Shown: positions 5,263 to 18,602, counted from the first letter of the stretch. The stretch: DNA of 32,000 nt from Crocosphaera subtropica ATCC 51142 (GCF_000017845.1 NC_010546.1:4170001-4202000); one strand, 5' to 3'. A program made the numbers and translations. Notes: generated from the letters alone by a model not told the origin.

Positions 5263-5339
5263 ATTAAGAAAAAGAGATGATAATAAGTGAGGAGACTAAC
5301 CCCTCAATTATTAGAAAAACCCTTGAATCAGAGGTAAAA

Positions 5340-5924
5340 ATGGCTGTTGCGATCGCTAAATCCATAACTGTCGAAGAATACTTAGCACGGGAAGAAGCTG
5401 CCCAAGAGAAAAGCGAATTTATTAATGGGGAAATGATTAAAATGGCGGGAGCTTCTGCAAATCACAATCTTTTAACGGGTAAACTTCATGCTCGGTTGTT
5501 ATTAGCATTAGAAGACGTGGATTATACGGTGTTTATGAGTGATATGAAACTTTGGCCGCCCCATTTTCAGAACTACTTTTATCCTGATGTCATGGTAATT
5601 AAGGGTGAACCTTGCTTTACCGATGCCAAACAAACCGCAGTCACTAATCCTTGTTTAATCGCAGAAATATTATCGGTTTCAACGGAAGGATTTGATAAGA
5701 ATCAGAAATTTACTTTTTATCGCACGATTCCTGAGTTGCAAGAATATCTGTTAATTGATCAGTGTGCTTATCGGGTGGAATTATATCGTAAAGTCGGCGA
5801 TCGTCAATGGTTATTAACGGAATTTATTGGTCAAGAAGAAGTTTTTACTTTACAATCGGTAGCAGTAGAAATTACACTTGCAGATTTATATAAACGAGTC
5901 AACTTTATCGGAAAGGAGCAATAA
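5340..5924 (+). CDS. Uma2 family (DUF820) PD-(D/E)xK-fold putative endonuclease
   Basis: The N-terminus ...ITVEEYLAREEAAQEKSEFINGEMI, the PDVMV...AEILSVST block and YRTIPELQEYLLIDQ are typical of the cyanobacterially expanded Uma2 family. I prefer the ATG at 5340, which is preceded by GAGG, over the track start at 5277. Confidence 0.8.
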   Translation: MAVAIAKSITVEEYLAREEAAQEKSEFINGEMIKMAGASANHNLLTGKLHARLLLALEDVDYTVFMSDMKLWPPHFQNYFYPDVMVIKGEPCFTDAKQTAVTNPCLIAEILSVSTEGFDKNQKFTFYRTIPELQEYLLIDQCAYRVELYRKVGDRQWLLTEFIGQEEVFTLQSVAVEITLADLYKRVNFIGKEQ

Positions 5925-6013
5925 TTATGCCATTAAATCCTAAAATTATCGCCAAAATTTGTGGGATTTAGCATACTAACGACGCAAAACCCATAATCTT
6001 AGGAGTTTAACCC

Positions 6014-6427
6014 ATGAAACGAATGTTAAAAACACAAACTTACCAGACAGATTACTATCAATGGACGATAGAGCAAGTCCAAGCTTTAAGAGAGCGAAAT
6101 TTAGACAATTTAGACTGGGAAAATATTATTGAGGAAATTGAATCTTTGGGACGTAGTGACTACAATGCTGTGTCTAGTCTTCTGATGAGAGAGATCGAAC
6201 ATCGCCTCAAAATTGACTATCCTCCTTTAGAGGAATGCTATAAAAAATCGCAAGTCGAAATACAAGCTTTCAAAATCGGGATCAAACGAAAGATTTCACC
6301 CAGTATGAAACCCAAACTCCAACAAGACTTAGATGAAATTTATCAAGATGCTGTTAGTTTAGTTACCTTGGAATACGGTATTAAATTACCTGATCAATGC
6401 CCCTACATTTTAGACGAATTGTTGTAG
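6014..6427 (+). CDS. DUF29 domain-containing protein
   Basis: The N-terminus YQTDYYQWTIEQVQALRERNLDNLDWENIIEEIESLGRSD is the hallmark of the cyanobacterial DUF29 family. Confidence 0.8.
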   Translation: MKRMLKTQTYQTDYYQWTIEQVQALRERNLDNLDWENIIEEIESLGRSDYNAVSSLLMREIEHRLKIDYPPLEECYKKSQVEIQAFKIGIKRKISPSMKPKLQQDLDEIYQDAVSLVTLEYGIKLPDQCPYILDELL

Positions 6428-6440
6428 AAGCTAAACCCAT

Positions 6441-7118
6441 TCAAGAACATAACCCCATAAAATCAATGAGTTGCTTAACGAGATCGGGTTTGGTGACGGC
6501 TAACATGGTCGAGCCAGTCTCTAGAATAGTGCTACCATTAGGGATGGTTAAATCTTCATGGGGATGGGCTTGATACCCAATAATTAAAGTTCCTACTGGA
6601 AACTGAGGATCTTTAGCAAGTTCAGCAATGGTACGTCCTGCAAGATAACACCCGTGGGGAACAGACAGTTTTAAAACTTCAATCTGTCCCTGTTCAAAGT
6701 GCATCATGGCTTCTACCTGAGGATATTCAATGGCGTTAATCACACGATTAATGGCTAGTTCTGTTGTACTGATTATATGAGTTGCACCGGCTAATTGATA
6801 GGGTTCAAGAAAATCGCGATCGCGCATCCGTACAATTATCTGCTGTACCCCATAATGTTTGGCTAAAGTTACCATGGCTAAGTTGAGAGCATCTTCTCGA
6901 AGGGCTGCAATCATTGCATCAGCTTTCCGAATGCCGGCTTCTAGTAATATATTAGTATTAACTGCACTGCCTTCAAAAGCCATGACACCGATTTTCTCGC
7001 GAGCATACTGACAAGCAAGAGTGTCTGTGTCTACAACAGCGATGGTATGGCCCATGTTCAACAAAGTTTTTGCTGAATCTAAGCCCATCATTCCTGCACC
7101 ACCAATGAGAATATACAT
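6441..7118 (-). CDS. TrkA/KtrA-like K+ transport regulatory protein (RCK: TrkA-N plus TrkA-C)
   Basis: The N-terminal Rossmann motif is MYILIGGAGMMG. The 225-aa length and C-terminal TrkA-C-like segment (RTIAEL...PNGSTILETGSTMLAV) fit the family. Confidence 0.85.
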   Translation of the reverse strand: MYILIGGAGMMGLDSAKTLLNMGHTIAVVDTDTLACQYAREKIGVMAFEGSAVNTNILLEAGIRKADAMIAALREDALNLAMVTLAKHYGVQQIIVRMRDRDFLEPYQLAGATHIISTTELAINRVINAIEYPQVEAMMHFEQGQIEVLKLSVPHGCYLAGRTIAELAKDPQFPVGTLIIGYQAHPHEDLTIPNGSTILETGSTMLAVTKPDLVKQLIDFMGLCS

Positions 7119-7222
7119 GGTTATTGCTAATTTTTTCTATAGAGTAGAGTTTCCATCAGAGATTACACTTAATCATAAAGATTACCTTTACAGTCATAAT
7201 ATTATCAAAATATCGAAGATCA

Positions 7223-7765
7223 ATGATTCAAACTGCTAAACTTTCGGTTACAGAGTATGAAACAATTGTCGAAACGGGAATTTTTAGTGATCGCCGTATT
7301 GAATTAATTGAAGGAAACTTAATCGAAGTGAGCCCAGAAACCCCGTACCATGCTAACTGTAATAACAAACTCTATAAATATTTTCTGACCTTATTTAATA
7401 GTTTAGCAGATGTGCGATCGGCTCATCCCATTAGTCTTATTAACTCGGAACCACAACCGGATTTAGTATTAGCAAAACTTCCTGATAGCTTATATGACAA
7501 CAAACATCCCGAACCAGAAGATATCTATTTATTAATTGAAATTTCCTATTCAACCTTAAGCTATGATTTAAACGAAAAAAAAAGAGTTTATGCTAAGTCA
7601 AATATTCAAGAATATTGGATAATTGATCTTGAAAATTATCGCTTAATTATCTTTAAGTCTCCTCATGGAGACGACTATCAAAATCAACTTGAATTAAAAA
7701 CAGGTTTTGTTTTCTGTTTAGCTTTTCCTGATGTTACTATAGAAGTGAATAAACTAATTAATTAA
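7223..7765 (+). CDS. Uma2 family (DUF820) putative endonuclease, second and divergent copy
   Basis: Shows LSVTEYETIVETGIF...RIELIEGNLIEVSPE, PDLVL and LLIEISYSTLSYDL...YAKSNIQEYWIIDL, giving PD...E-x-S motif spacing like Uma2. Confidence 0.8.
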   Translation: MIQTAKLSVTEYETIVETGIFSDRRIELIEGNLIEVSPETPYHANCNNKLYKYFLTLFNSLADVRSAHPISLINSEPQPDLVLAKLPDSLYDNKHPEPEDIYLLIEISYSTLSYDLNEKKRVYAKSNIQEYWIIDLENYRLIIFKSPHGDDYQNQLELKTGFVFCLAFPDVTIEVNKLIN

Positions 7766-7977: not shown

Positions 7978-10062
7978 TTAGCTTCTTATAGCATCAATAA
8001 GTTCGTCAGCAGTGGGGTTAAAGTTAGGCTTAGGAATGTTAATATTTTCAGCCCAAAGATAATAAACTTTTTCTAAAGCTTCTTCATGAACACTCCAGGA
8101 TCTTGTTTGTTTTTTAGTGTTAACCTGAACTAATAACCATTTTTGTTCTGGAGACTCTCGAGGTTCAATGGCAAAAATAAAACAAAGTTCTTGATTATAC
8201 GCTTCATAATAAGATAACTTATACAGTGATCCTTGCCATCCACGTTCTCCCATTGTTGCTAATTGAATGGCTTGTTCTTCTAGTTCATTTTTAGGGATAA
8301 AAATATAAGTTTGTGGGGTAGTTTGATCAGAATAAACTGGAGGACACCAACCAAATTTATCTAGCATAAAATCTAACAGTTGATCAAATGCTTCTATATC
8401 ATTTGTCATCAAAGCAACATCCCCATCTTGATCAGGTTGTGTTCTTACCCATTTGATTTGTTCTTTAAACTTATGGTTTGCAGCAACGGCAAAAGCATTA
8501 TCAGTCACTAATTCATAATCAACCCCAATATAGCCTTTTTCTACAAGTTCTTCAATGGTTTTATCCGAAGGAAAAGGATGATTAATTGAGTAATCATAAT
8601 CAGCAAATGACACTGTTTGAGCAGTTTGATTAGTAGTATTGCCGCTCTGATTCATTAATTCTTTAGCACGAGGAATGATCTCTTTTTTCTTACTGGAAAT
8701 ACCTTTTATGGTATTAATAGGAAATACTGTTTCTTCTCCATTGTCTAAAATTAAAGAAAAACGCAGATTCTCTTCATCATTAAAATATAATTTGATCAGA
8801 GTTTTGTTTTCATCTCCATCAATATTGATACCACAATACTCTACAGTATCCTTCATTTGTAAACGATTACTATCTAAATCATTACGTTTAAATAATCGTT
8901 TCAGGGCATTAAATCCATTAATTTCCATCTGAGTTGTGATAATTTCTTCAAAATGAGAAGGAACTGACTGCATTTCAGAAGGAGCTTGCTCAAACTCTTC
9001 TATTTGGATATTTGTAGGTTTCTTAGAGTTAGTATTTGAGTTTTTAGATTGACTTAATTCTTGTTTTAAGCTTTCAATTTCATTCTGTAAAGCTTTTAGT
9101 TTTTCTTGGTTTTCTTCCTCTGCTAATGCAATTCCGTGAGCTACATAATCAAGACTATAAATATGTAAAAGCGTTTCTCTCATTTCTTCGGCTGACTCAA
9201 AACGATTTTGTGGTAAAACCGCTACTGCTTTTTTTAGCCACTTAAATAAAGGAGGTGCAATTATTTCTTCAACTTCTGTTAAGTCTAATTCGTAATTTTC
9301 CGTGATGTCAAATTGATGAGGCGGAACTCCTGTTATTAATACTAAAAGTGTCATTCCTACTGCATATAAATCACTTTGAAAGAATGTTTTACCCATTTGC
9401 TGTTCAATGGGACAATATCCAGGAGTACCAATAACTGTTCCTGTTTTTCCTAAACCAGAAACTTCTACATCTTTGATGATTCCGAAGTCAATTAAAACTG
9501 GTTTACCATCTCCTTGACGTAAAATAATGTTATCAGGTTTAATATCTCGATGAATAATGTTTTGTTGATGAACTGTTTCTAAAACCTCTAGTAAAGATAA
9601 CATTAGTTCAATAGCTTTTTTATCAGCCATAACATATCCTTCTTTCAATAATGCCAAGAGTTGATCTTTTAAACTATTACCCTGAATAAATTCTTGAATT
9701 AAATAAAAATTTCCTTCAAAATCAAAAAAATCAATTAAAGAAGGGATTTGCCCGTGAGAAACTCCTAATTTTTGTAGAACTTGTGCTTCTTTTTTAAATC
9801 TCTCTAATAAGTCTAAATTATGGTCATGATCATCTCCTAATTTTTGCAATTTAGCGACATAAATAACTGGAACGGCTGTCATTAAACTTTTAACTAGAAA
9901 GGTTGCACCGAAACCCCCTTCTCCTAAAACTTTCGTCACTTCATATTTATTAGCTAAACAATAACCGGGTTGAATATCTTTGACCTTTTTTCTACCGTGA
10001 TTATTTTGGTTATCTTCTGAAAATAAATCAAAAATTTTATTTAACATGGTTGGGTTCCTCAT
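7978..10062 (-). CDS. Hanks-type Ser/Thr protein kinase fused to a coiled-coil linker and an unassigned roughly 330-aa C-terminal domain
   Basis: Kinase motifs are all present: G-loop LGEGGFGATF, VAK lysine, catalytic HRDIKPDNIIL, DFG (LIDFGI) and GTPGYCPIEQ. Residues around 310-345 are heptad-like (KLKALQNEIESLKQELSQ). I cannot assign residues around 370-694 to any family. An alternative start is the ATG at 10047, preceded by GAGGAA. Confidence 0.85.
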   Translation of the reverse strand: MRNPTMLNKIFDLFSEDNQNNHGRKKVKDIQPGYCLANKYEVTKVLGEGGFGATFLVKSLMTAVPVIYVAKLQKLGDDHDHNLDLLERFKKEAQVLQKLGVSHGQIPSLIDFFDFEGNFYLIQEFIQGNSLKDQLLALLKEGYVMADKKAIELMLSLLEVLETVHQQNIIHRDIKPDNIILRQGDGKPVLIDFGIIKDVEVSGLGKTGTVIGTPGYCPIEQQMGKTFFQSDLYAVGMTLLVLITGVPPHQFDITENYELDLTEVEEIIAPPLFKWLKKAVAVLPQNRFESAEEMRETLLHIYSLDYVAHGIALAEEENQEKLKALQNEIESLKQELSQSKNSNTNSKKPTNIQIEEFEQAPSEMQSVPSHFEEIITTQMEINGFNALKRLFKRNDLDSNRLQMKDTVEYCGINIDGDENKTLIKLYFNDEENLRFSLILDNGEETVFPINTIKGISSKKKEIIPRAKELMNQSGNTTNQTAQTVSFADYDYSINHPFPSDKTIEELVEKGYIGVDYELVTDNAFAVAANHKFKEQIKWVRTQPDQDGDVALMTNDIEAFDQLLDFMLDKFGWCPPVYSDQTTPQTYIFIPKNELEEQAIQLATMGERGWQGSLYKLSYYEAYNQELCFIFAIEPRESPEQKWLLVQVNTKKQTRSWSVHEEALEKVYYLWAENINIPKPNFNPTADELIDAIRS

Positions 10063-10095
10063 TATGACGGTTAACTGGACATTTTCCTAATGATC

Positions 10096-10105
10096 AGTAT
10101 TCCCA
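10096..10105 (-). promoter_or_regulatory. TGGGAATACT motif upstream of the kinase gene
   Basis: The minus strand reads TGGGAATACT. There are 33 nt between the motif and the ATG at 10062. The identical 10-mer occurs upstream of comM and GmrSD-2, and a 1-mismatch copy lies upstream of GmrSD-1. Confidence 0.4.
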
Positions 10106-10156
10106 AAACTCAGCTAACCATAACAACTTAATGAACAAAAATAATAGCGATCGCTA

Positions 10157-10186
10157 ATTTTTCCTCAATTTCTGGGAATACTAAAT
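10157..10186 (+). promoter_or_regulatory. 30-nt element containing TGGGAATACT upstream of comM
   Basis: The sequence is ATTTTTCCTCAATTTCTGGGAATACTAAAT. The core 10-mer lies at 10173-10182, 35 nt before the ATG at 10218. It is 24/30 identical to 11760-11789. Confidence 0.4.
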
Positions 10187-10217
10187 AAAACAAACAATAA
10201 AGTCATAGGAAATCATA

Positions 10218-11747
10218 ATGTTAGCCAGGGTTTGGTGCGCTTCATTAGTGGGTATTGATGCGGTAAAAGTTGGGGTAGAAGTAGATGTTGCCGGGGGACT
10301 TCCTGCTATCACAATTGTGGGACTACCAGACACTGCTGTACAAGAATCCAGGGAAAGAGTGAAAGCAGCTATTAAGAATTCAGGGTTTGCCTTTCCCGTG
10401 CGAAAAATAATTATTAACTTAGCCCCGGCTGACTTACGCAAAGATGGCCCTTCTTTTGACTTACCCATCAGTGTGGGTATATTAACGGCCTCAGAGCAAG
10501 TTGATGCCCATTTATTGGGGGATTATTTGTTTTTAGGAGAACTCTCCCTTGATGGCAGTTTGCGCCCCGTGGCCGGCGTTTTACCCATCGCTGCTAAAGC
10601 GCAACAGTTAAGGATCAAAGGGTTAGTGGTGCCGGCGGATAACGCCCAAGAAGCAGCCGTCGTCAAAGGTTTAGCGGTTTATGGGTTCAAACACCTCTCA
10701 GATGTAGCTGACTTCCTCTGTCAACCCGAAAACTATCAACCTGTCACCTATCAACCCCCGAAAAAGGATGATTTAAGCCCTATTTTTCCCCTGGATCTCA
10801 AAGACGTTAAAGGCCAAACCCACGCCCGTCGCGCCTTAGAAATAGCGGCATCGGGGGGACATAATTTAATTTTAGTTGGGCCACCCGGAAGCGGAAAAAC
10901 CATGTTAGCTAAGCGTTTACCTGGTATTTTACCGCCGTTATCCTTTTCTGAGGCGTTAGAAGTCTCTCAGATCCACTCTGTAGCTGGTTTACTGAAAAAT
11001 AGAGGCTCTTTGATCCAGGATCGCCCCTTTCGTAGTCCCCATCATTCTGCGTCGGGTCCGAGTTTAGTGGGGGGTGGAAGTTACCCGAAACCGGGAGAAA
11101 TTTCCTTATCTCATCACGGTATCTTATTTTTAGACGAATTAACGGAGTTTAAGCGTAATGTGCTGGAGTTTCTTCGTCAACCCTTAGAAGATGGTTATGT
11201 TTCAATATCCCGAACTCGTCAGTCGGTGACATTCCCTGCACAGTTTACCCTGGTCGCAAGCACAAACCCTTGTCCCTGTGGGTATTTCGGCGATCCCATC
11301 CAACGCTGTACTTGTTCCCCCCGTCAACGGGAACAATATTGGGCGAAGTTATCGGGTCCGTTGATGGATAGAATTGATTTACAAGTGGCTGTAAACCGCC
11401 TAAAACCCGAAGAAATGACGCAACAAGTGACAGGGGAGGGATCGGATAGTATTAGAGAGAGGGTGAAATTAGCCCGCGATCGCGCTCACCATCGCTTTAA
11501 GGAAGATGCTTCAGTATCTTGTAACGCACAGATGCAGACATCCCATTTACGGCGTTTTTGTGCGTTGGATGATGGTAGTCGTAACTTATTAGAAGGGGCG
11601 ATCCGTAAGTTAGGGTTATCTGCAAGGGCGATGGATCGAGTGTTAAAAGTATCTCGTACTATTGCGGATCTTGCTGATGATGACACAGTTAAAAGTTATC
11701 ATGTTGCTGAGGCAATACAATATCGAACCATTGATAGAATGCAGTAG
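10218..11747 (+). CDS. comM: YifB/ComM family Mg-chelatase-like AAA+ ATPase
   Basis: The N-terminal Lon-protease-like domain is GVEVDVAGGLPAITIVGLPD...ESRERVKAAI. Also present are Walker A GPPGSGKTM, Walker B ILFLDEL and the Cys cluster NPCPCGYFGDP..RCTC. The 509-aa length is typical. Confidence 0.9.
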   Translation: MLARVWCASLVGIDAVKVGVEVDVAGGLPAITIVGLPDTAVQESRERVKAAIKNSGFAFPVRKIIINLAPADLRKDGPSFDLPISVGILTASEQVDAHLLGDYLFLGELSLDGSLRPVAGVLPIAAKAQQLRIKGLVVPADNAQEAAVVKGLAVYGFKHLSDVADFLCQPENYQPVTYQPPKKDDLSPIFPLDLKDVKGQTHARRALEIAASGGHNLILVGPPGSGKTMLAKRLPGILPPLSFSEALEVSQIHSVAGLLKNRGSLIQDRPFRSPHHSASGPSLVGGGSYPKPGEISLSHHGILFLDELTEFKRNVLEFLRQPLEDGYVSISRTRQSVTFPAQFTLVASTNPCPCGYFGDPIQRCTCSPRQREQYWAKLSGPLMDRIDLQVAVNRLKPEEMTQQVTGEGSDSIRERVKLARDRAHHRFKEDASVSCNAQMQTSHLRRFCALDDGSRNLLEGAIRKLGLSARAMDRVLKVSRTIADLADDDTVKSYHVAEAIQYRTIDRMQ

Positions 11748-11759
11748 GATTTTTTTGTT

Positions 11760-11789
11760 ATTTTTCTGTAATTTCTGGGAATCCTAATA
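11760..11789 (+). promoter_or_regulatory. 30-nt element containing TGGGAATCCT upstream of GmrSD-1
   Basis: The sequence is ATTTTTCTGTAATTTCTGGGAATCCTAATA. The core lies at 11776-11785, 17 nt before the ATG at 11803 (32 nt before the alternative ATG at 11818). It forms a direct repeat with 10157-10186. Confidence 0.4.
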
Positions 11790-11802
11790 CAAGTTAGGTC
11801 AA

Positions 11803-13497
11803 ATGAATAGTAACAAAATGAAAGCTTCTGAAACCAGTATTCGTAATCTTTTAGAAGGTACAAAACAGTTCCAAGTTCCTCTTTTTCAAAGACCCTATTC
11901 TTGGAAAAAAAGCCACTGGGATACTCTTTGGGATGATTTAATGAGTATATATAATGAAGAAGTTGAAGGCAGTTACTTTTTAGGTCCAATAGTTACACAG
12001 TCAATATCTGCAACGGCTGACGGAATTTCACCATTTCTTATCATTGATGGTCAACAGCGTTTGACTACTTTAAGTATTTTATTAGCAAGTTTACGAGATA
12101 AATTAAAAAATGCAAATAAGAAGAGAGTTTCAGATGAGTTACACGAATTTTATTTAATTAATAAGTTTAAAGACAATGAAGATTATTTTAAAGTCTTACC
12201 AACTCAAGCTGATCGGGACTCTTATAAAGCACTTATTGATAGAGAAAATAGCTTAAGTCATCTCAACTTGAATGGTCAAATAACTAAAGCTCATGAATAT
12301 TTTATTAAAAAATTAAATAACCAAGGAATTGATTTTTGCGACAAAATCAAAAATATTATTCTTGAAAAATTAATTGTTGTTAATATTACATCGGGCGAGG
12401 ATGATAATCCTTATTTAATTTTTGAGAGTTTGAATAATAAAGGACAAGAATTGACTCAAGCTGATTTAGTTCGTAATTATATATTTATGAAGCTACCTCT
12501 TGAAAGTAGAGAAAAAGAATATAATTGTTTATGGTTACCTCTTGAAAATAAATTTAAAGAACAAGTGGGTGAAAAATATTCTGGAGAATTGACCAATTCC
12601 TTTTGGTTTTATTTAAGAAAAGAGGGAAAATCCGTTTCTAAAAATAATATTTATCAATCATTTAAGAAAAAATGTGATAACTCTTCAGATGGGTTACAAG
12701 AAGAATTAGAATTATTAGTGAAATTTTCTCAGTATTATGAATGTTTAAACTTTCCTGAAACAGAAGAATCTAATTCTATGCTAAAAAACTATTTTAATAA
12801 CTTAAAGAAATTAGATTTCACCACATCACACATTTTTCTATTAAATATATATAATGATTATCAAAATAGTCAAATTTCAAAAGATGACTTTGAGAAAATA
12901 TTAATTTATCTCGAATCCTATTTTGTTCGTCGTTTATTTTCAGGAGTATCTACAAGGGTATTAGGTGGAATTCTCAATAATTTATATAAGGATATACAAA
13001 AAGAAAATACTGGTGATATTGTCCAAAGATTATATGAAATCCTAAATCGATTTGAAAACCAAAAAAGATGGCCAACGGATGAAGAGTTTAAACAGGGAAT
13101 TATAAATCATAATATTTATAGTCAAAAAACAGCAGGACGAACTCAATTTATTCTAGAAAGATTAGAAAAAAGTCAAGGTAAAGAAACTGTTGATTTTTCA
13201 AACTTGACTGTTGAACATATTATGCCTCAAACGCTTAGTAATCAATGGAAAAAAACATTAGGTGAGAAAAATGCAAAGAATTATAAGACGTGGCTTCATA
13301 CATTGGGAAATTTAACACTAACTGCTTATAACCCAGAATTATCTAATAAACCCTATTTTGATAAACAAAAATATTTAATAGACAGTAACTTATATCTTAA
13401 TCGGTATTTTCGTGATATTAATGACTGGAATTTTGATGAGATTAAAGAAAGGGGAAACCGCTTAGCTGATATCGCTATCAAAGTCTGGCCTAGATAA
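11803..13497 (+). CDS. GmrSD-family type IV (modification-dependent) restriction endonuclease candidate: DUF262 plus DUF1524
   Basis: N-terminal DUF262 (ParB/Srx-like) motifs are FQVPLFQRPYSW and IIDGQQRLTTLSILL. The C-terminal DUF1524 His-Me finger-like block is TVEHIMPQ...WLHTLGNLTLTAYNPELSNKPY. Confidence 0.85.
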   Translation: MNSNKMKASETSIRNLLEGTKQFQVPLFQRPYSWKKSHWDTLWDDLMSIYNEEVEGSYFLGPIVTQSISATADGISPFLIIDGQQRLTTLSILLASLRDKLKNANKKRVSDELHEFYLINKFKDNEDYFKVLPTQADRDSYKALIDRENSLSHLNLNGQITKAHEYFIKKLNNQGIDFCDKIKNIILEKLIVVNITSGEDDNPYLIFESLNNKGQELTQADLVRNYIFMKLPLESREKEYNCLWLPLENKFKEQVGEKYSGELTNSFWFYLRKEGKSVSKNNIYQSFKKKCDNSSDGLQEELELLVKFSQYYECLNFPETEESNSMLKNYFNNLKKLDFTTSHIFLLNIYNDYQNSQISKDDFEKILIYLESYFVRRLFSGVSTRVLGGILNNLYKDIQKENTGDIVQRLYEILNRFENQKRWPTDEEFKQGIINHNIYSQKTAGRTQFILERLEKSQGKETVDFSNLTVEHIMPQTLSNQWKKTLGEKNAKNYKTWLHTLGNLTLTAYNPELSNKPYFDKQKYLIDSNLYLNRYFRDINDWNFDEIKERGNRLADIAIKVWPR

Positions 13498-13559
13498 CAA
13501 TTATTTTGATAAAGTATCGGGAGTAAAAACGGTTTGTCCTATCAAATAAATAGATTTTC

Positions 13560-14921
13560 TTACAAAGTAAATTGAAAATCATTAACGATCATTCCTGGGG
13601 TCAAAATACCCCCTAAACTTCTTTGTCCATAAGTACCTGTTCTCGGAATAAACTCTCTAAAATTAGTTAAAGTAACTAAATTTTCTCTCCAAAAACGATA
13701 TAAACTTTCATCAAATCTTAAGTTTTCAATGGGGGCAATAATTTCGCCATTTTCTACCCAGAAACAAGCATAACGAGTCATTCCTGTTATTCTTCCTCCT
13801 GTGCGATCGCTCCAGTTTAAATAGTGTAAATTAGAGACATATAACCCTGTATTTAAAGTCGATAAAATCTCCTCTTGAGATAAATTCCCTGGTAATAATT
13901 CAGGCGATCGCAAACTCTCATAATTATTAGCACCATTTGCAGTTAAATTATATTCTGATGCAGTGCGAGAACTAATTAAAGTATTAACTAAATTTCCTTC
14001 GGTGATAATGGGTAAAATTTCGGGAGCAATTTCTCCTAATTCATTAAACCTAGGGACGCTACCTTTACTAAAGTTTTCTTGCAAGGAAAATTGAGGAGAT
14101 AATGTTTTTCCTTGTTGCAATTTTAATAAAGAACTATCTCCCCGTCTCAAAGAAGATTGACTAATACCACCCCAAGATAACATACTAATCAAATCAGCAA
14201 CGGCAGCAGGGGCGAAATAAGTACGATATCCTCCAGGTTTAATGGTTTTTGATGGTTTCTCTAAAGCAATAAATTGCGCTTTATCGGTTTTAATTTGCTC
14301 TAAATACTTATTATGATCCCAATTTTGTCCTGAAAATATACCTTTAACTGCTTTGTCTTCTGGCGTAATTAAAGAATAATCAACGATGTAATTTTCAGTC
14401 GCAAACCAATGAAATTGACCAGCAGAATTACTATTTCCTCGAATCATAGAACCTGCGGTATATAGTCCCGTCATATCTAATTCAGAAACAGGAGAAATAA
14501 TCTCATTCACTGCTTTTTCTGTCGATAATAAGTTTCCTGGATAAACTTCTTTTGTTGTTCCGTTATTTTCAGGGAGAACAATATGAGGATCTTCTGGTAA
14601 TTGGGGTAATTCTTGACGTAAATAGTTCAAATTTTCTACTGCAATTTGACTATCACCTGACTCATCTCCTGTAAAAGAAAATGTAGCAAAAGCTATTCTT
14701 TGATTAGCCATTAAGGTGAGTTTAATAGTCCCATCTTTAACTATGCCAGTTTGTCTTACTTTTGCACTATTAAACCGAATAAATTGAGTTTGTTCTCCAC
14801 TTAATTCGATAGTTAAATATTCTTCACTTTGTAATTTATCAATGAGAAGATGACACAGTTGTTGAAAGCTAGATTCTAAATGGTCTAATTTTTGATTATT
14901 CATCAGAGAAAAAATAAGCAA
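13560..14921 (-). CDS. pmbA: TldD/PmbA family protein, PmbA/TldE-like (no HExxxH motif seen)
   Basis: The C-terminal family block is GGRITGMTRYACFWVENGEIIAPIENLRFDES and the size is about 450 aa. I see no HExxxH metal site, which argues for the TldE/PmbA partner rather than TldD. It contains two HIP1 sites (13803, 13904). An alternative start is at 14903. Confidence 0.8.
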   Translation of the reverse strand: MLIFSLMNNQKLDHLESSFQQLCHLLIDKLQSEEYLTIELSGEQTQFIRFNSAKVRQTGIVKDGTIKLTLMANQRIAFATFSFTGDESGDSQIAVENLNYLRQELPQLPEDPHIVLPENNGTTKEVYPGNLLSTEKAVNEIISPVSELDMTGLYTAGSMIRGNSNSAGQFHWFATENYIVDYSLITPEDKAVKGIFSGQNWDHNKYLEQIKTDKAQFIALEKPSKTIKPGGYRTYFAPAAVADLISMLSWGGISQSSLRRGDSSLLKLQQGKTLSPQFSLQENFSKGSVPRFNELGEIAPEILPIITEGNLVNTLISSRTASEYNLTANGANNYESLRSPELLPGNLSQEEILSTLNTGLYVSNLHYLNWSDRTGGRITGMTRYACFWVENGEIIAPIENLRFDESLYRFWRENLVTLTNFREFIPRTGTYGQRSLGGILTPGMIVNDFQFTL

Positions 14922-15042
14922 ATCTAATGGATGAAGACAGTTAATTGCTTGGGGATAATGACCTAAAGTAGCAATACTTTTCTTGAATCATTAAATTGTA
15001 ACTTATTTTCTTCTCTGTGTGCTAGTCTATCTTACTCTTTTA

Positions 15043-16740
15043 TTAAGTGGATAGGTTTAACTTCCATAAATTTTGCAATTCTGCCAGTAAATACCGTTGT
15101 CGTTGTTCAATAATTTCTGGTGTCCATTCTTCTTCTTTCATTGCTTGGATAGTTAAAGCAAAGATAGCGGTAGGATTATTAATGTATTTATCTTTTTTTA
15201 CTTTATATTCATAATTTTTTGCTTCACTATTTTTTTTATGAGAAAGTAAAACTAAATTACCGAGACGATGAACATATTTGTCTTTTTGTTCTTGAGAAGT
15301 AAACCATTCGTTCCACTGACTATCTAATGGAGGATTTTGAGGTAAAATGTGTTCAATGGTAATCACTTTATAACCATCATAGTTAGGAATTCCATCACTC
15401 ATTAAACTATCAAGACGAAGTAAAACATACAGGTTTACTTTTCTCATTTCGTAAAGATTTCTATCTAATAATTTAATGATTTCTTCTTGTTCTGAAGACG
15501 ATAGTTGTAAAGGAGAATCTACTGCATATAAATCTGCATCATCTTCTATCGCTTGTAAAATATCTGCATAGTGTTTATTTCTTTGATAAATAGTCGTTCT
15601 GAGAATCATTAAGCCGACAGCAAATCGCTCTAAATAGGTTAAAAAAGCTAGTATCTTTTCAGGCTTATTTTTATGTTTTTTAATATACAAAATAGTGGGA
15701 GGTATCCACTCAAAATGATCAATACGCTGTAACCATTTCAAGAGTTCATTAATTTCTTTAGCACCGTGATCATGGATAAAATCACATTTTTTTATGTCAT
15801 CAAAAGCCTCACTAAAAGCTTGTAATACATTATCAATAAAATCACGAGGATTATGCTTAATTAAAACATACTCACGAAATTCCTCAATCACTTTACGACT
15901 TAGTCTCTTCTTTGCGTAAATCATGCGTATATGAGAGAATAATTCTTGAAAATTCTCTCGACCTAATTTTACTTCTATGTCTTCCCATTTCTTGGTATAT
16001 TTTTTTTCTAGAGATTCATTATCTGAAATTTTACCGATCAAATCTGCTTTTAAAATATCAGTAACCGATAAATCTAAGCCTCGATCATTTAAGACTGAGA
16101 AAATACGATAAGCTGATTCAAAATCAGGAGTAGAAACAGCTACTAAATAACATCGCTGTAAGAGGAATTTTGTTAAATGTTGTTTTTGAGAGTCTTCGGG
16201 TAATTTTTCACTTATTCTTTTAAGTAAAATCCGAGTATTGTTAACAATATTTTTTTGAGGATCAGAAAGATTTTGAACTGTTATAGTTTCGATATCTTTT
16301 AATCCTTCTGAAGTTTGAATATATTTTTCAAAAAATTCTTTATCCCGTTCCCTTAAATATAATCGAGGACGGGCAGGAATTCCTGAAAGTCTCCTTTCTG
16401 CCTGATAGATAAAATACCCTAATTCATTATCATTTATCAACTTCCTTAAGACAGATAAAAGAATTGTCAAAGTGGTTAATCTTTGTTGTCCATCGACAAC
16501 CTCTGAGTCTGGTTTTCCTTCAGGTTTTATAAGGACAATATTTCCTAAAAAATAAGGTGCTATATGTTCAATATTTACAGAATTATCACCCATAGCATCA
16601 ATCAGATCATCTAATAATCTTTCCGTTTCCTCTGTCGTCCAAGCATAAGGACGTTGATAGTTAGGAATATTAAAAGAAAATTGATCACTAAAAATCTCTT
16701 TAATGGGATATCCTGCACCGTCAATTTTAATTGCTGTCAT
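15043..16740 (-). CDS. Second, divergent GmrSD-family type IV restriction endonuclease candidate (DUF262 plus DUF1524)
   Basis: DUF262 motifs are FNIPNYQRPYAW and VVDGQQRLTTLTILL. The DUF1524 block is TIEHILPQN...YVHRLGNLVLLSHKKNSEAKNYEY. At 565 aa it is close to the 564 aa of the first copy, but by eye they share only motif-level identity. Confidence 0.85.
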   Translation of the reverse strand: MTAIKIDGAGYPIKEIFSDQFSFNIPNYQRPYAWTTEETERLLDDLIDAMGDNSVNIEHIAPYFLGNIVLIKPEGKPDSEVVDGQQRLTTLTILLSVLRKLINDNELGYFIYQAERRLSGIPARPRLYLRERDKEFFEKYIQTSEGLKDIETITVQNLSDPQKNIVNNTRILLKRISEKLPEDSQKQHLTKFLLQRCYLVAVSTPDFESAYRIFSVLNDRGLDLSVTDILKADLIGKISDNESLEKKYTKKWEDIEVKLGRENFQELFSHIRMIYAKKRLSRKVIEEFREYVLIKHNPRDFIDNVLQAFSEAFDDIKKCDFIHDHGAKEINELLKWLQRIDHFEWIPPTILYIKKHKNKPEKILAFLTYLERFAVGLMILRTTIYQRNKHYADILQAIEDDADLYAVDSPLQLSSSEQEEIIKLLDRNLYEMRKVNLYVLLRLDSLMSDGIPNYDGYKVITIEHILPQNPPLDSQWNEWFTSQEQKDKYVHRLGNLVLLSHKKNSEAKNYEYKVKKDKYINNPTAIFALTIQAMKEEEWTPEIIEQRQRYLLAELQNLWKLNLST

Positions 16741-16780
16741 GGTGTTTCCTTGAAAAATTTTTCTTCATCTGCTAACTGAT

Positions 16781-16790
16781 AGTATTCCCA
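16781..16790 (-). promoter_or_regulatory. TGGGAATACT motif upstream of GmrSD-2
   Basis: The minus strand reads AAATTGGGAATACTATCAG. There are 40 nt between the 10-mer and the ATG at 16740. Confidence 0.4.
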
Positions 16791-17084
16791 ATTTCGTGAA
16801 ACTTATTACCATGATTATTACTCACATCTTGCACCTTGGATTAAATTAGCTAGTTTAGGGAGGGAAGACTGGAACAAAAAAAGGGTTTATTTTGACTGTA
16901 TCTACTTAATACCAGTTCTCAGAAATAGCTAAAAAGATTGCTTCGGGGTATTTTCAGTAAAAGTCAAAGCTTACTGTTTACATTACCCCTCGCAATGACC
17001 ATTTAAGTATTTAATAACTTTCGAGAATTTCTCAACTCAAATAGATACAATAAATAAACGAGTGTTCAATATGATAGATAAATT

Positions 17085-18023
17085 GTGGAGATTACCTTTT
17101 TAGGAACCAGTTCCGGAGTGCCAACACGATCGCGTAATGTGTCGAGTGTCGCCTTAAGATTACCTCAACGGGCCGAAGTTTGGTTATTTGACTGTGGAGA
17201 AGGAACCCAACACCAACTATTACGCAGTGACGTGAAAATATCCCAAATTACGCGCATTTTTGTCACCCATATGCACGGCGATCACATTTATGGGTTGACG
17301 GGGTTATTGGCCAGTTGTGGGTTAGCAGGAAGTGGCCAACCCATTGAAATTTATGGTCCCCCAGAATTAAAAGACTATCTAAAAGCTTGCGCTAAATACT
17401 CCCATTTCAAGCTACCTCATCATATTCGCTTTCATCCCATTCACCCGGGTATCCTCTACGAAGATGCTGAGTTTAGTGTCAGTTGCAACCTGTTGAAACA
17501 TCGTATTCCAGCTTATGGTTATCGTATCGCAGAAAGCGATCGCCCCGGACGCTTTAATGTGGAAAAAGCCAAGTCCCTAGGTATTCCCCCCGGCCCAGTT
17601 TATGGGGAACTTAAACAAGGGAAAACTGTTACCTTACCCGATGGCCGTAATATTCGCGGACAAGACTTGTGTGGAGAGAGAGAAACAGGCCGAAAAGTCA
17701 TTTATTGTACAGATACGGTATTTTGTGAAGGAGCGATCGCATTATCAGAAGATGCAGATGTATTAATTCATGAGGCCACCTTTGCCCATCAAGATGCACA
17801 ATTGGCTTTTGATCGTCTTCATTCTACCTCAACAATGGCTGCACAAGTGGCGTTAGCAGCCCAAGTTAAACAACTCATCATGACCCATTTTAGCCCCCGT
17901 TATGCCCCAGGAAATGCCCTACAGTTGGATGATTTATTACAAGAAGCAAGGGCAATTTTTCCTAATACCATTTTAGCCCGTGACTTCATGACCTATGAAG
18001 TCCCTAGAAGATCCTCAGATTAA
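17085..18023 (+). CDS. rnz: Ribonuclease Z (tRNA 3' endonuclease)
   Basis: Shows the metallo-beta-lactamase motif HMHGDHIYG and the N-terminus ITFLGTSSGVPTRSRNVSS. The 312-aa length fits. It uses a GTG start at 17085. Confidence 0.9.
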   Translation: MEITFLGTSSGVPTRSRNVSSVALRLPQRAEVWLFDCGEGTQHQLLRSDVKISQITRIFVTHMHGDHIYGLTGLLASCGLAGSGQPIEIYGPPELKDYLKACAKYSHFKLPHHIRFHPIHPGILYEDAEFSVSCNLLKHRIPAYGYRIAESDRPGRFNVEKAKSLGIPPGPVYGELKQGKTVTLPDGRNIRGQDLCGERETGRKVIYCTDTVFCEGAIALSEDADVLIHEATFAHQDAQLAFDRLHSTSTMAAQVALAAQVKQLIMTHFSPRYAPGNALQLDDLLQEARAIFPNTILARDFMTYEVPRRSSD

Positions 18024-18048: not shown

Positions 18049-18357
18049 TTAACAATGAATCAGATAACTAGAGAAAAAGTTTACGAAACAGAATTGCTGA
18101 AAAAAGAATGATTTTACAATTTTCACTTGTTGATTTTCACTATCAATCTCGTAAACAAGACGATGTTGAAGATTAATTCTTCGTGAATACATATCTTTCA
18201 AATCCCCTGTTAGTTTTTCATAAGGTGGAGGATTTTGATAGGGGTTAACCTTAAGAATATCAAGTAACTGATCTACTTTACTTTTTAACCCTGCACGATT
18301 AACTTTTTTAGCATCTTTTAACGCTCTTTTTGTTAACGCAATTTTCCACATTACCAT
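18049..18357 (-). CDS. yoeB: Txe/YoeB-family type II toxin with an atypical C-terminus
   Basis: The translation MWKIALTKRALKDAKK...NPYQNPPPYEKLTGDLKDMYSRRINLQHRLVYEI matches the YoeB/Txe core. The expected terminal ...W.HY(E) is replaced by KSFFFQQFCFVNFFSSYLIHC. The start overlaps the antitoxin stop (ATGGTAATG). Confidence 0.7.
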   Translation of the reverse strand: MVMWKIALTKRALKDAKKVNRAGLKSKVDQLLDILKVNPYQNPPPYEKLTGDLKDMYSRRINLQHRLVYEIDSENQQVKIVKSFFFQQFCFVNFFSSYLIHC

Positions 18358-18602
18358 TCCACTTCGTCAAGAGGAGTGCAGTCTTCCCAAGGAGTATTTT
18401 TTCCTTTTATCAAATCGTCTTTTACCCCAGGAATGGATAATAGGTAAAGGGTTTCCTGTAAAGATTTCCACTCATCCAAAGAAATTAATACAGCTTGTTT
18501 ATGATTTTCAACGGTGATTAAGGTAGCTTCATGAGATATGTTAACCTGGTCAATTAGTGAAGAAAGGAGAGCATTAGCTTCTTCAATATTAATATTATTC
18601 AT
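18351..18602 (-). CDS. yefM: Phd/YefM-family type II antitoxin
   Basis: An 83-aa protein with LSSLIDQVNISHEATLIT..NHKQAVLISLDEWKSLQETLYLLS, typical of YefM. It lies immediately upstream of the toxin gene and overlaps it. Confidence 0.8.
   Translation of the reverse strand: MNNINIEEANALLSSLIDQVNISHEATLITVENHKQAVLISLDEWKSLQETLYLLSIPGVKDDLIKGKNTPWEDCTPLDEVEW

What the first reader, a model, noticed from the sequence alone, without database searches (positions are those of the whole stretch)
10096..16790. The same 10-mer (TGGGAATACT) lies sense-oriented upstream of the kinase, comM and both GmrSD genes
Four copies sit just upstream of four genes, always oriented with the downstream gene.
- Reverse complement of 10096-10105: 33 nt before the kinase ATG at 10062.
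- 10173-10182: 35 nt before the comM ATG.
- 11776-11785, reading TGGGAATCCT (1 mismatch): 17 nt before the GmrSD-1 ATG, or 32 nt before the alternative ATG at 11818.
- Reverse complement of 16781-16790: 40 nt before the GmrSD-2 ATG.

With equal base frequencies a given 10-mer is expected about 0.06 times in 64 kb of two-strand sequence (64000/4^10). Three exact copies in equivalent promoter/5'UTR positions are therefore unlikely to be chance. pmbA, which sits between the two GmrSD genes, has no copy. I saw no copy upstream of any other gene in the window. The only other near-match I noticed is TGGGAATATT at 3621-3630, which overlaps the antiporter start codon.

The motif does not match the cyanobacterial boxes I know (NtcA GTA-N8-TAC, LexA, HLR1/RpaB). 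It could be a shared operator, a -10-like promoter element or a 5'UTR RNA motif. Any of these would tie these four genes into one regulon.
Basis: seen in the sequence. Interest (0 to 1): 0.7.

Follow-up and report, generated by a model that had tools for sequence, protein, structure and literature searches.

The report
Known cyanobacterial J-Box promoters, new target genes
The repeated TGGGAATACT is the already described "J-Box", the extended -10 promoter element read by the SigJ/SigF-type alternative sigma factor of cyanobacteria; here it sits in front of the DNA-uptake helicase gene comM, two GmrSD restriction-enzyme genes and a protein kinase gene, which suggests these genes are switched on together with the pilus and competence programme.

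Summary
There are three exact copies and one 1-mismatch copy, each sense-oriented 41-57 nt (first G to ATG) upstream of a gene. The chance expectation for the exact 10-mer is 0.05 copies.

The motif is not new. GGGAATACT is the published consensus of the J-Box, the extended -10 element of SigJ-dependent promoters in Nostoc punctiforme (Gonzalez et al. 2019). The same paper lists a J-Box upstream of pilB in this organism. The window is Crocosphaera subtropica (Cyanothece) ATCC 51142, and GmrSD-2 is cce_4064.

A matrix built from 47 published J-Boxes ranks the four sites as the top four in the window.

What is new is the set of target genes:
- J-Box-like sites lie at a fixed 30-49 nt upstream of comM in 13 of 80 cyanobacterial species.
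- They lie upstream of 9 of 28 cyanobacterial relatives of GmrSD-1, and of 0 of 50 non-cyanobacterial relatives.
- They lie upstream of 7 of 8 relatives of GmrSD-2.
- The inferred N. punctiforme GmrSD-2 orthologue, Npun_R0157, is strictly SigJ-dependent in the published RNA-seq data, where it is annotated only as "hypothetical".
- The kinase J-Box is conserved only within Crocosphaera.

Verdict: new members of a known promoter class, of moderate interest. No transcription start sites or sigma-factor genetics are available for this organism.

The parts
10173..10182 (+). J-Box (extended -10 element) of the comM promoter. The 16-mer CTGGGAATACTAAATA spans 10172-10187. The first G is 44 nt before the ATG. 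Predicted TSS is about 10189-10190 and the 5'UTR about 28 nt.
   Evidence: Exact consensus and the highest matrix score in the window, 18.9 bits. The identical box sits at the identical distance in four related genomes, L001-L004, even though the upstream gene differs in L002-L004. TSS inferred from the gvpA rule.
10096..10105 (-). J-Box of the divergent Ser/Thr kinase promoter (TTGGGAATACTGATCA, 10091-10106). The first G is 57 nt before the likely start at 10047. Predicted TSS is about 10088.
   Evidence: Matrix score 15.5. Conserved in C. chwakensis (L001), where most of the kinase gene is deleted, and in Crocosphaera sp. UHCC 0190 (L173).
11776..11785 (+). J-Box of the GmrSD-1 promoter (CTGGGAATCCTAATAC, 11775-11790). 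GGGAATCCT is the same variant as in the N. punctiforme pilB promoter. The first G is 41 nt before the ATG at 11818.
   Evidence: Matrix score 16.4. Npun_F5138 (pilB) carries CTGGGAATCCT. Nine of 28 cyanobacterial relatives have a J-Box 37-49 nt before the ATG.
16781..16790 (-). J-Box of the GmrSD-2 (cce_4064) promoter (TTGGGAATACTATCAG, 16776-16791). The first G is 49 nt before the ATG at 16740. Predicted TSS is about 16773.
   Evidence: Matrix score 15.7. Seven of 8 relatives from other cyanobacteria have a J-Box 41-55 nt upstream. The inferred N. punctiforme orthologue Npun_R0157 is SigJ-dependent.
10157..10184 (+). A 28-nt block shared with 11760-11787 (86% identical: ATTTTTCCTCAATTTCTGGGAATACTAA against ATTTTTCTGTAATTTCTGGGAATCCTAA). 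It is an AT-rich spacer and -35 region plus the box, shared by the comM and GmrSD-1 promoters.
   Evidence: (family D4).
10218..11747 (+). comM, a YifB/ComM family Mg-chelatase-like AAA+ ATPase.
   Evidence: TIGR00368, 759 bits against a cutoff of 362. Pfam ChlI, Mg_chelatase and Mg_chelatase_C.
7978..10062 (-). Ser/Thr protein kinase with a roughly 420-aa C-terminal region that has no Pfam match. The likely true start is the ATG at 10047.
   Evidence: Pfam Pkinase. In L001 the first ATG is absent and the second is kept. A gene caller chose the 689-aa form in L081. PADLOC PD-T4-6, 229 bits.
11818..13497 (+). GmrSD-1, a DUF262/DUF1524 type IV restriction-like enzyme. The true start is 11818, not 11803.
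   Evidence: Pfam GmrSD_N and GmrSD_C. The 559-aa form is 100% identical to the NCBI protein of C. subtropica, and 24 aligned homologues (P0001 plus 23 relatives) begin at its Met, mostly MKASE.
15043..16740 (-). GmrSD-2 (cce_4064).
   Evidence: Pfam GmrSD_N and GmrSD_C. 100% identical to cce_4064.
18375..18390 (-). Possible fifth J-Box (TTGGGAAGACTGCACT). It lies inside the 3' end of the yefM-like antitoxin gene, with its first G 31 nt before the yoeB/parE-like toxin ATG at 18357. Its status is uncertain.
   Evidence: Matrix score 13.4, fifth in the window. Pfam assignments. GGGAAGACT is a J-Box variant seen in Npun_F2367 and L172.
16860..16875 (+). Weak J-Box-like site (GAGGGAAGACTGGAAC) facing the RNase Z gene, 223 nt before its GTG at 17085. 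Its status is uncertain.
   Evidence: Matrix score 11.0. The whole stretch is conserved in L001, so conservation says nothing specific about the box.

Best explanation
The four copies are J-Boxes. A J-Box is the extended -10 promoter element (GGG followed by aAtacT) recognised by RNA polymerase carrying a group-3 alternative sigma factor of the SigJ/SigF family. The window comes from Crocosphaera subtropica ATCC 51142.

Each box is a separate promoter. Transcription would start about 7 nt downstream of the final T, giving 5'UTRs of 26-42 nt. The -35 region is AT-rich and largely dispensable.

The boxes place four genes in the regulon that in other cyanobacteria drives type IV pili, motility and natural competence: comM, the divergent Ser/Thr kinase gene, GmrSD-1 and GmrSD-2. 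pmbA, which lies between the two GmrSD genes, is not included.

Shown here: sequence identity to the consensus, position and orientation, and conservation upstream of orthologues. Taken from published data: SigJ dependence of the inferred GmrSD-2 orthologue in N. punctiforme. Inferred: that a SigJ/SigF-type sigma factor reads these promoters in Crocosphaera, the exact start sites, and the rationale of switching on anti-foreign-DNA genes when pili and DNA uptake are active.
For: **1. Match to the published element.**
- The published J-Box consensus is GGGaAtacT, or GGGAATACT. It sits at -10 of SigJ-dependent start sites mapped by 5'RACE and Cappable-seq, with invariant GGG, A and T.
- Three sites here match it exactly.
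- The fourth, GGGAATCCT, equals the box of N. punctiforme pilB.

**2. Matrix ranking.**
- A matrix from 47 published boxes ranks the four sites first to fourth in the window, at 15.5-18.9 bits. The training median is 14.9.
- The expectation for hits of 15 bits or more is 0.585 per window.
- All four hits lie in the 2% of strand positions that are 15-60 nt upstream of, and sense to, a gene. P is about 8e-10.

**3. The same strain has a listed J-Box.** The paper's data set lists TTTGGGAATAATAAC upstream of pilB in Cyanothece ATCC 51142 and CCY0110. The window is that organism.

**4. Conservation upstream of orthologues.**
- comM: the same box at the same 44 nt in L001-L004. J-Box-like sites fall 30-49 nt upstream, sense strand, in 13 of 80 species, against 1 antisense.
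- GmrSD-1 family: 9 of 28 cyanobacterial loci have a box 37-49 nt upstream. None of 50 non-cyanobacterial loci does.
- GmrSD-2 family: 7 of 8 loci.
- These relatives are not next to comM outside Crocosphaera, so the associations are independent.

**5. Published expression data for Npun_R0157.**
- Its promoter is 80% identical to the upstream region of a Nostoc GmrSD-2 relative, with matching synteny.
- Reads: wild type 7, 52, 122, 194, 153; the sigJ deletion 1, 1, 0, 1, 1.

**6. Link to competence.** S. elongatus SigF2 is the SigJ homologue. It is required for natural transformation and for dprA expression. That fits a competence helicase gene under a J-Box.

**7. No competing promoter.** No sigma-70-type promoter match lies upstream of comM, GmrSD-1 or GmrSD-2.
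Against: - No transcription start site or expression data were found for these genes in C. subtropica. A literature search for the locus tags returned nothing relevant.
- The presence of a sigJ or sigF gene in this genome was not checked.
- comM has no J-Box in Nostocales or Microcystis, so its membership is lineage-specific.
- C. chwakensis lacks the GmrSD-2 box because of an indel of about 100 bp. One Crocosphaera relative of GmrSD-1 (L085) has a degenerate box, GTTGGCAACCT.
- Two of 14 exact 9-mers in 104 kb of Crocosphaera-clade DNA are intragenic and antisense. A consensus match therefore does not always sit in front of a gene.
- That Npun_R0157 is a GmrSD protein rests on promoter homology and synteny. 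Its protein sequence was not seen.
Confidence: 0.8

Rival explanations
1. The motif is the operator of a DNA-binding transcription factor (a repressor or activator) that co-regulates the four genes, and is not a sigma-factor recognition element.
For: Sequence alone cannot separate a -10 element from a factor site that overlaps the promoter. TTCTGGGAA in the comM and GmrSD-1 copies has weak dyad character, TTC-N3-GAA. The spacing to the ATG varies from 41 to 57 nt.
Against: - The dyad is absent from the kinase and GmrSD-2 copies.
- All copies are strictly sense-oriented, which a symmetric operator would not need.
- The 9-mer equals a consensus placed at -10 of SigJ-dependent start sites by mapping.
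- The flanking preferences also match the sigma-dependent motif: T before the box, AA after it, AT-rich upstream.
Confidence: 0.08
2. The motif is part of the transcribed 5'UTR and acts as an RNA element, for example a binding site for a protein or small RNA.
For: The motif lies 17-40 nt upstream of start codons, where a 5'UTR element could sit. No start-site data exist for this organism.
Against: - Rfam finds nothing in 9800-17200, even at E up to 1.
- In N. punctiforme the same sequence lies upstream of mapped start sites.
- No sigma-70-type promoter lies further upstream for comM or the GmrSD genes that could produce such a UTR.
- Only about 10-16 nt are conserved, and no partner for pairing was seen in the alignments.
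Confidence: 0.03
3. The copies are chance matches, or pieces of a dispersed repeat or mobile element, with no regulatory role.
For: - With one mismatch allowed the count is not significant: 6 against 2.67 expected.
- 284 different 10-mers occur three or more times in this AT-rich window.
- Two consensus 9-mers in related loci are intragenic and antisense.
Against: - The exact 10-mer is expected 0.05 times.
- All four copies sit in the 11% of the window that is non-coding, at promoter distance and in sense orientation. P is about 8e-10.
- No longer repeat surrounds them apart from one 28-nt block.
- The box is conserved upstream of orthologues in many genomes while the flanks diverge.
Confidence: 0.02

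Closest known systems
J-Box, the extended -10 element of SigJ-dependent promoters in Nostoc punctiforme (Gonzalez et al. 2019, mSphere, PMC6495340; consensus GGGAATACT also in PMC11407516)
   Same: - The same 9-mer, with the same invariant GGG, A and T.
- The same flanking preferences: T before the box, AA after it, and an AT-rich, weakly conserved -35 region.
- The same sense orientation upstream of genes.
- The paper already lists J-Boxes upstream of pilB in Cyanothece ATCC 51142 and CCY0110.
   Different: - The organism here is a unicellular diazotroph that makes no hormogonia.
- The target genes comM, GmrSD-1, GmrSD-2 and this kinase were not discussed in the main text of that paper, and comM and DUF262 did not occur in the stored part of its supplements. 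A different Ser/Thr kinase, Npun_R0292, is listed in its SigJ regulon with a J-Box.
- No start sites or sigma-factor mutants exist for this organism.
- Which sigma factor reads the box, SigJ or SigF, is unknown.
SigF2 of Synechococcus elongatus PCC 7942, the SigJ homologue, and its control of natural competence (Taton et al. 2020, PMC7125226; Suban et al. 2024, PMC11345509)
   Same: A SigJ-type group-3 sigma factor is needed for transformation and for expression of dprA, a gene for processing incoming DNA. ComM acts at the same post-uptake stage (established knowledge of ComM as a branch-migration helicase in transformation). S. elongatus pilB carries a GGGCACGCT box, like the GGGCAC variants found upstream of comM in several lineages.
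   Different: comM did not appear as a SigF2 target, and no promoter motif was found, in the main text of the Taton paper as searched here. Restriction genes are not known to belong to that regulon.
SigF-recognised -10 region of Synechocystis sp. PCC 6803
   Same: [quoted passage not shown] It also finds J-Boxes upstream of pilB in strains that have sigF but no sigJ.
   Different: The two motifs are described as similar but not identical. This was not tested here.
Extended -10 (TGn) promoters of sigma-70 in E. coli
   Same: The same logic applies: extra contacts just upstream of the -10 hexamer make the -35 hexamer dispensable (and established knowledge).
   Different: The extension is GGG rather than TG, and the hexamer is aAtacT rather than TATAAT. 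A sigma-70 consensus scan does not pick these sites up.
Competence regulons that include restriction-modification functions, such as competence-induced DpnA in Streptococcus pneumoniae (from my own knowledge; not checked here)
   Same: Genes that deal with the modification status of incoming DNA are wired to the DNA-uptake programme.
   Different: The logic is opposite: DpnA protects incoming DNA, whereas GmrSD-type enzymes cut modified DNA. The regulator is also different.

Membership tests
J-Box / SigJ-type promoter | Sequence GGGaAtacT with invariant GGG, an A at position 5 and a T at position 9 | tested here: met
   Three sites are GGGAATACT and one is GGGAATCCT. Matrix scores are 15.5-18.9, against a training median of 14.9.
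J-Box / SigJ-type promoter | Lies upstream of, and in the same orientation as, the regulated gene, at promoter distance | tested here: met
   The first G is 41-57 nt before the start codon, and all four sites are sense-oriented and intergenic.
J-Box / SigJ-type promoter | The box is centred at -10 relative to the transcription start site | not testable with these tools
   No 5'-end data for C. subtropica were found. The predicted start sites are inferred from the gvpA rule.
J-Box / SigJ-type promoter | An AT-rich, weakly conserved -35 region, with no canonical TTGACA | tested here: met
   The 30 nt upstream are 67-80% A+T, against 63% for the window. There is no sigma-70 promoter match at comM, GmrSD-1 or GmrSD-2.
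J-Box / SigJ-type promoter | Transcription depends on SigJ or a SigF-family sigma factor | not testable with these tools
   Indirect evidence only. The inferred N. punctiforme orthologue of GmrSD-2, Npun_R0157, loses all expression in the sigJ deletion.
J-Box / SigJ-type promoter | The genome encodes a SigJ or SigF orthologue | not tested
   No such gene lies in the window, and the genome-wide scans were exhausted. The published pilB J-Box in the same strain suggests the system is present.
YifB/ComM family | Full-length match to TIGR00368 above its cutoff, with the ChlI, Mg_chelatase and Mg_chelatase_C architecture | tested here: met
   759 bits against a cutoff of 362, covering residues 5-503. 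Pfam domains. A role in transformation in this organism was not tested.
GmrSD-type type IV restriction enzymes (DUF262 + DUF1524) | An N-terminal GmrSD_N (ParB-like NTPase) domain and a C-terminal GmrSD_C (HNH-type nuclease) domain in one protein | tested here: met
   Both proteins exceed the Pfam cutoffs for both domains. PADLOC models Orf5, HEC-06 and mREase_IV also match. Cleavage of modified DNA was not tested.
PD-T4-6-type defence kinase | A single-gene Ser/Thr kinase that confers phage defence | tested here: inconclusive
   PADLOC PD-T4-6 gives 229 bits over the kinase domain only. Generic kinase similarity cannot be excluded: the NCBIfam MADS6 model scores 118 bits against a cutoff of 460.

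The most novel reading that the evidence does not exclude
Across cyanobacteria, from unicellular Crocosphaera to Nostoc, the SigJ/SigF2-type sigma factor that turns on type IV pili and DNA uptake may also directly turn on genes that act on incoming DNA. These would be two separate clades of GmrSD type IV restriction enzymes, possibly a defence-type kinase, and in some lineages the ComM helicase. That would be a hard-wired coupling of pilus exposure and competence to innate immunity. It has gone unnoticed because the N. punctiforme member, Npun_R0157, is annotated as hypothetical.
Probability: 0.4. Interest if true: 0.6.

Novelty: new member of a known kind. Interest (0 to 1): 0.4.

Why it matters
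The motif itself needs no new explanation. Recognising it turns an anonymous 10-mer into a testable regulatory prediction for a model diazotroph that is hard to manipulate genetically.

The new content is the target list:
- comM joins dprA as a post-uptake competence gene linked to a SigJ-type sigma factor.
- Two distantly related GmrSD restriction families carry J-Boxes in many cyanobacteria. One member is SigJ-dependent in published RNA-seq data.

If this holds, defence against modified foreign DNA in cyanobacteria is timed by the sigma factor that deploys pili. Pili are receptors for some phages and the route for DNA uptake. This bears on why some strains resist transformation, and on how defence genes are regulated rather than merely catalogued.

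Tried and rejected
- **Rfam.** An E-value search of 9800-17200 gave no hit, so there is no support for an RNA element.
- **Repeat search.** It found only a 28-nt block shared by the comM and GmrSD-1 promoters. No MITE or longer repeat was found.
- **Sigma-70 consensus scan.** The number of matches equals chance, and none lies in the comM or GmrSD upstream regions.
- **Recent duplication of a GmrSD gene with its promoter.** Rejected, because the two proteins are 25% identical.
- **comM J-Box as a general cyanobacterial feature.** Rejected. It is absent in Nostocales and Microcystis and present in 13 of 80 species.
- **Kinase J-Box beyond Crocosphaera.** It was not found in two distant relatives, L174 and L175.
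- **The near-match at 3621-3630.** It overlaps the antiporter start codon and scores low.
- **Literature search for cce_4060-4064 and Npun_R0157.** Nothing relevant was found.
- **Direct confirmation of the Npun_R0157 protein.** Cluster look-up found no N. punctiforme member.
- **A GmrSD-1 orthologue promoter in the published SigJ promoter list.** No convincing match. Only a 12-nt coincidence with Npun_BR072 turned up.
- **comM, DUF262 and chelatase in the published expression table.** The stored copy is truncated, so N. punctiforme comM could not be checked.
- **Literature linking GmrSD, cyanobacteria and sigma factors.** Only a general review was found.

Full report
**Observation**

The window contains the exact TGGGAATACT at 10096-10105 (-), 10173-10182 (+) and 16781-16790 (-). 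It contains TGGGAATCCT at 11776-11785 (+).

The exact 10-mer is expected 0.05 times in dinucleotide-preserving shuffles, and no shuffle reached three copies. With one mismatch allowed the count is 6 against 2.67 expected, which is not significant on its own. The case therefore rests on the exact copies and on where they sit.

Pfam and NCBIfam confirm the gene identities:
- 7978-10062 (-): a Ser/Thr kinase.
- 10218-11747 (+): a YifB/ComM family ATPase, 759 bits on TIGR00368.
- 11803-13497 (+) and 15043-16740 (-): two proteins, each with GmrSD_N plus GmrSD_C.
- 13560-14921 (-): PmbA/TldD, between the two GmrSD genes and without a copy of the motif.

The two GmrSD proteins are only 25% identical. 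Outside the box the four upstream regions do not align, apart from a 28-nt block shared by the comM and GmrSD-1 promoters. The copies are therefore not left over from a recent duplication or a dispersed repeat.

**Source organism**

The window comes from Crocosphaera subtropica (formerly Cyanothece sp.) ATCC 51142.
- The 559-aa form of GmrSD-1 is 100% identical to an NCBI protein of that species, on a 4,934,271-bp contig.
- GmrSD-2 is 100% identical to cce_4064.
- The closest ComM relatives, at 97%, are from C. chwakensis CCY0110 and Crocosphaera MAGs.

**What the motif is**

GGGaAtacT is the J-Box. Gonzalez et al. 2019 (PMC6495340) defined it as the highly conserved extended -10 region of SigJ-dependent promoters in Nostoc punctiforme.
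- It was found in 93 of 118 promoters in three expression clusters.
- The gvpA start site mapped by 5'RACE lies 10 bp from the centre of aAtacT.
- The GGG trio is interpreted as an extended -10 contact, and the -35 region is AT-rich and weak.

Later papers give the consensus as GGGAATACT and place it at -10 of SigJ-dependent start sites mapped by Cappable-seq. MEME motifs in the supplementary data read TGGGAATWMTAAA. The GmrSD-1 variant GGGAATCCT is the same as the box of N. punctiforme pilB, Npun_F5138. The same data set lists a J-Box (TTTGGGAATAATAAC) upstream of pilB in Cyanothece ATCC 51142 and CCY0110. The element was therefore already recorded in this organism.

**Quantitative test**

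I built a 16-position weight matrix from 47 published N. punctiforme J-Boxes.
- The four sites are the four best hits in the window on either strand: 18.9 for comM, 16.4 for GmrSD-1, 15.7 for GmrSD-2 and 15.5 for the kinase. The training median is 14.9.
- First-order Markov simulations give 0.585 hits of 15 bits or more per window.
- All four observed hits fall 15-60 nt upstream of, and sense to, one of 28 genes. That class holds 2% of strand positions. The Poisson probability is about 8e-10.
- A sigma-70 consensus scan finds no promoter match upstream of comM, GmrSD-1 or GmrSD-2.
- Rfam finds nothing in the region.

Applying the gvpA rule predicts start sites near 10189 (+), 10088 (-), 11792 (+) and 16773 (-), and 5'UTRs of 26-42 nt. 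This also settles two start codons.
- GmrSD-1 starts at 11818. P0001 and the 23 aligned relatives begin at that Met, mostly as MKASE, and NCBI uses the same start.
- The kinase probably starts at 10047. The first ATG is lost in C. chwakensis while the second is kept.

**Conservation upstream of comM**

In four related genomes (L001-L004; ComM 89-97% identical) the same box sits at the same 44 nt. It lies within a conserved block that runs from about -35 to the Shine-Dalgarno region, even though the upstream gene differs in L002-L004.

Across 80 cyanobacterial species, J-Box-like hits (7 bits or more) upstream of comM pile up 30-49 nt before the ATG on the sense strand. Thirteen species have one, against one antisense hit and about one expected from the other bins. 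The non-Crocosphaera cases mostly carry a GGGCAC variant, like the S. elongatus pilB box. They include members of:
- Elainellales
- Leptolyngbyaceae
- Tildeniella
- Chroococcidiopsis

Nostocales and Microcystis lack a box there.

**Conservation upstream of the GmrSD genes**

GmrSD-1 family. Among 80 metagenomic loci, 9 of the 28 with 44% identity or more have a J-Box of 11.4-14.6 bits 37-49 nt upstream. These 28 have low G+C and are cyanobacterial. None of the 50 loci with 36-41% identity reaches 11 bits; most of these have high G+C and are non-cyanobacterial.

GmrSD-2 family. Seven of eight relatives have a box of 12.5-16.0 bits 41-55 nt upstream. The seven come from:
- Cyanothece BG0011
- a Crocosphaera MAG
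- an unnamed 6-Mb genome
- Waterburya
- Pleurocapsa
- Coleofasciculus
- Nostoc

Outside Crocosphaera these genes are not next to comM. The box is therefore tied to each gene family independently.

**Conservation upstream of the kinase**

The kinase box is conserved only within Crocosphaera: in the window, in L001 and in L173. It is absent from two distant relatives.

**Experimental link from published data**

The upstream region of the Nostoc GmrSD-2 relative (L172) is 80% identical over 80 nt to the promoter listed for Npun_R0157 in SigJ cluster 12. In both cases the gene is followed by two metallophosphoesterase genes.

Npun_R0157 is annotated as a hypothetical protein. Its published read counts are:
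- wild type: 7, 52, 122, 194, 153
- sigJ deletion: 1, 1, 0, 1, 1
- sigC deletion: 23, 182, 120, 111, 102
- sigF deletion: 7, 44, 75, 278, 131

This GmrSD family is therefore very likely a true SigJ-regulon member in N. punctiforme. I did not see the Npun_R0157 protein sequence itself, so this step is inferred. A Ser/Thr kinase, Npun_R0292, is also in that regulon with a J-Box, but orthology to the kinase here was not shown.

**Mechanism**

RNA polymerase carrying a SigJ/SigF-family group-3 sigma factor most likely recognises GGG plus aAtacT and starts transcription about 7 nt downstream, independently at each of the four promoters. In S. elongatus the SigJ homologue SigF2 is required for natural transformation and for dprA expression. 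A ComM gene under a J-Box fits the same programme.

The GmrSD genes match type IV restriction models in PADLOC, and the kinase domain matches PD-T4-6 models at 229 bits, though generic kinase similarity cannot be excluded. I suggest that defence against modified foreign DNA is switched on when pili and DNA uptake are active. This rationale is inference only.

**Caveats**
- There are no start-site or expression data for this organism.
- The sigma-factor gene was not looked for.
- C. chwakensis lacks the GmrSD-2 box because of an indel of about 100 bp.
- L085 has a degenerate box.
- Two of 14 exact 9-mers in 104 kb of Crocosphaera-clade DNA are intragenic and antisense.

**Verdict**

The new content is the set of target genes and their conservation. 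This is a new member of a known kind, of moderate interest.

Noticed in passing
window 18375-18390 (-): A fifth J-Box-like site (TTGGGAAGACTGCACT, 13.4 bits) lies inside the 3' end of a Phd/YefM antitoxin gene (18351-18602). Its first G is 31 nt before the ATG of the overlapping YoeB/ParE-like toxin gene (18049-18357). It could be an internal promoter that expresses the toxin alone, or a chance match.
   Followed up: partly
window 16860-16875 (+): A weak J-Box-like site (GAGGGAAGACTGGAAC, 11.0 bits) faces the RNase Z gene (17085-18023), 223 nt before its GTG. With the GmrSD-2 box it would form a divergent pair like the one between the kinase gene and comM. The whole stretch is nearly identical in C. 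chwakensis, so conservation is uninformative.
   Followed up: partly
window 11803 vs 11818; 10062 vs 10047: Start codons. GmrSD-1 most likely starts at 11818: P0001 and the 23 aligned relatives begin at that Met, mostly as MKASE, and NCBI uses the same start. The kinase most likely starts at 10047: the first ATG is lost in C. chwakensis and AGGA lies upstream of the second ATG. Gene callers disagree between L081 and L082.
   Followed up: yes
window 11748-13560; L002 9530-12731; L001 4909-6716: The slot between comM and pmbA is a variable defence slot in Crocosphaera. The window holds GmrSD-1. One MAG (L002) holds a three-gene NsnABC system, whose first gene is a DUF262-only protein. C. chwakensis holds fragments of type I R-M specificity subunits.
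   Followed up: partly
L001 2601-3268 (C. chwakensis CCY0110): Most of the kinase gene (window 8317-9997) is deleted, leaving a 175-aa ORF with no Pfam domain. The kinase-side J-Box is still intact upstream of it.
   Followed up: partly
L001 9914-9955 vs window 16741-16872: An indel of about 100 bp directly upstream of the GmrSD-2 start codon removes the J-Box and the 5'UTR in C. chwakensis. The stretch is present in the window, in Cyanothece BG0011 (L165) and in a Crocosphaera MAG (L166).
   Followed up: partly
L173 900-2800 (Crocosphaera sp. UHCC 0190): The divergent J-Box (2773-2788, -) sits 46 nt before a 243-aa ORF whose first roughly 215 residues match the N-terminus of ComM. A PemK/MazF toxin-antitoxin module and other DNA lie between this fragment and a full-length comM. 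This looks like an insertion into comM with a partial duplication.
   Followed up: partly
window 7978-10047 (-): The kinase domain matches PADLOC PD-T4-6 (single-gene defence kinase) models at up to 229 bits. The C-terminal region of about 420 aa has no Pfam match. Full-length relatives are almost confined to Crocosphaera.
   Followed up: partly
L002 16542-16557 (-); L173 5527-5542 (+): Two consensus J-Boxes lie inside genes on the antisense strand: a cbiG/precorrin methylase fusion and a fatty-acid desaturase. They may be antisense promoters, since SigJ-dependent antisense RNAs exist in the N. punctiforme data, or they may be chance matches.
   Followed up: no
PMC6495340 Data Set S1 (not in the window): Npun_R0370, an OLD-family ATP-dependent endonuclease, is induced in hormogonia (13 to 187 reads) and much less in the sigJ deletion (9 to 33). 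This is another defence-type gene following the SigJ programme in N. punctiforme.
   Followed up: no
window 5277-7765: There are two Uma2-family putative endonuclease genes (5277-5924 and 7223-7765) and a DUF29 gene (6014-6427) around a TrkA-like gene. The first Uma2 and the DUF29 assignments come from the precomputed annotation of L081, which carries the same genes. None of these genes has a J-Box.
   Followed up: no
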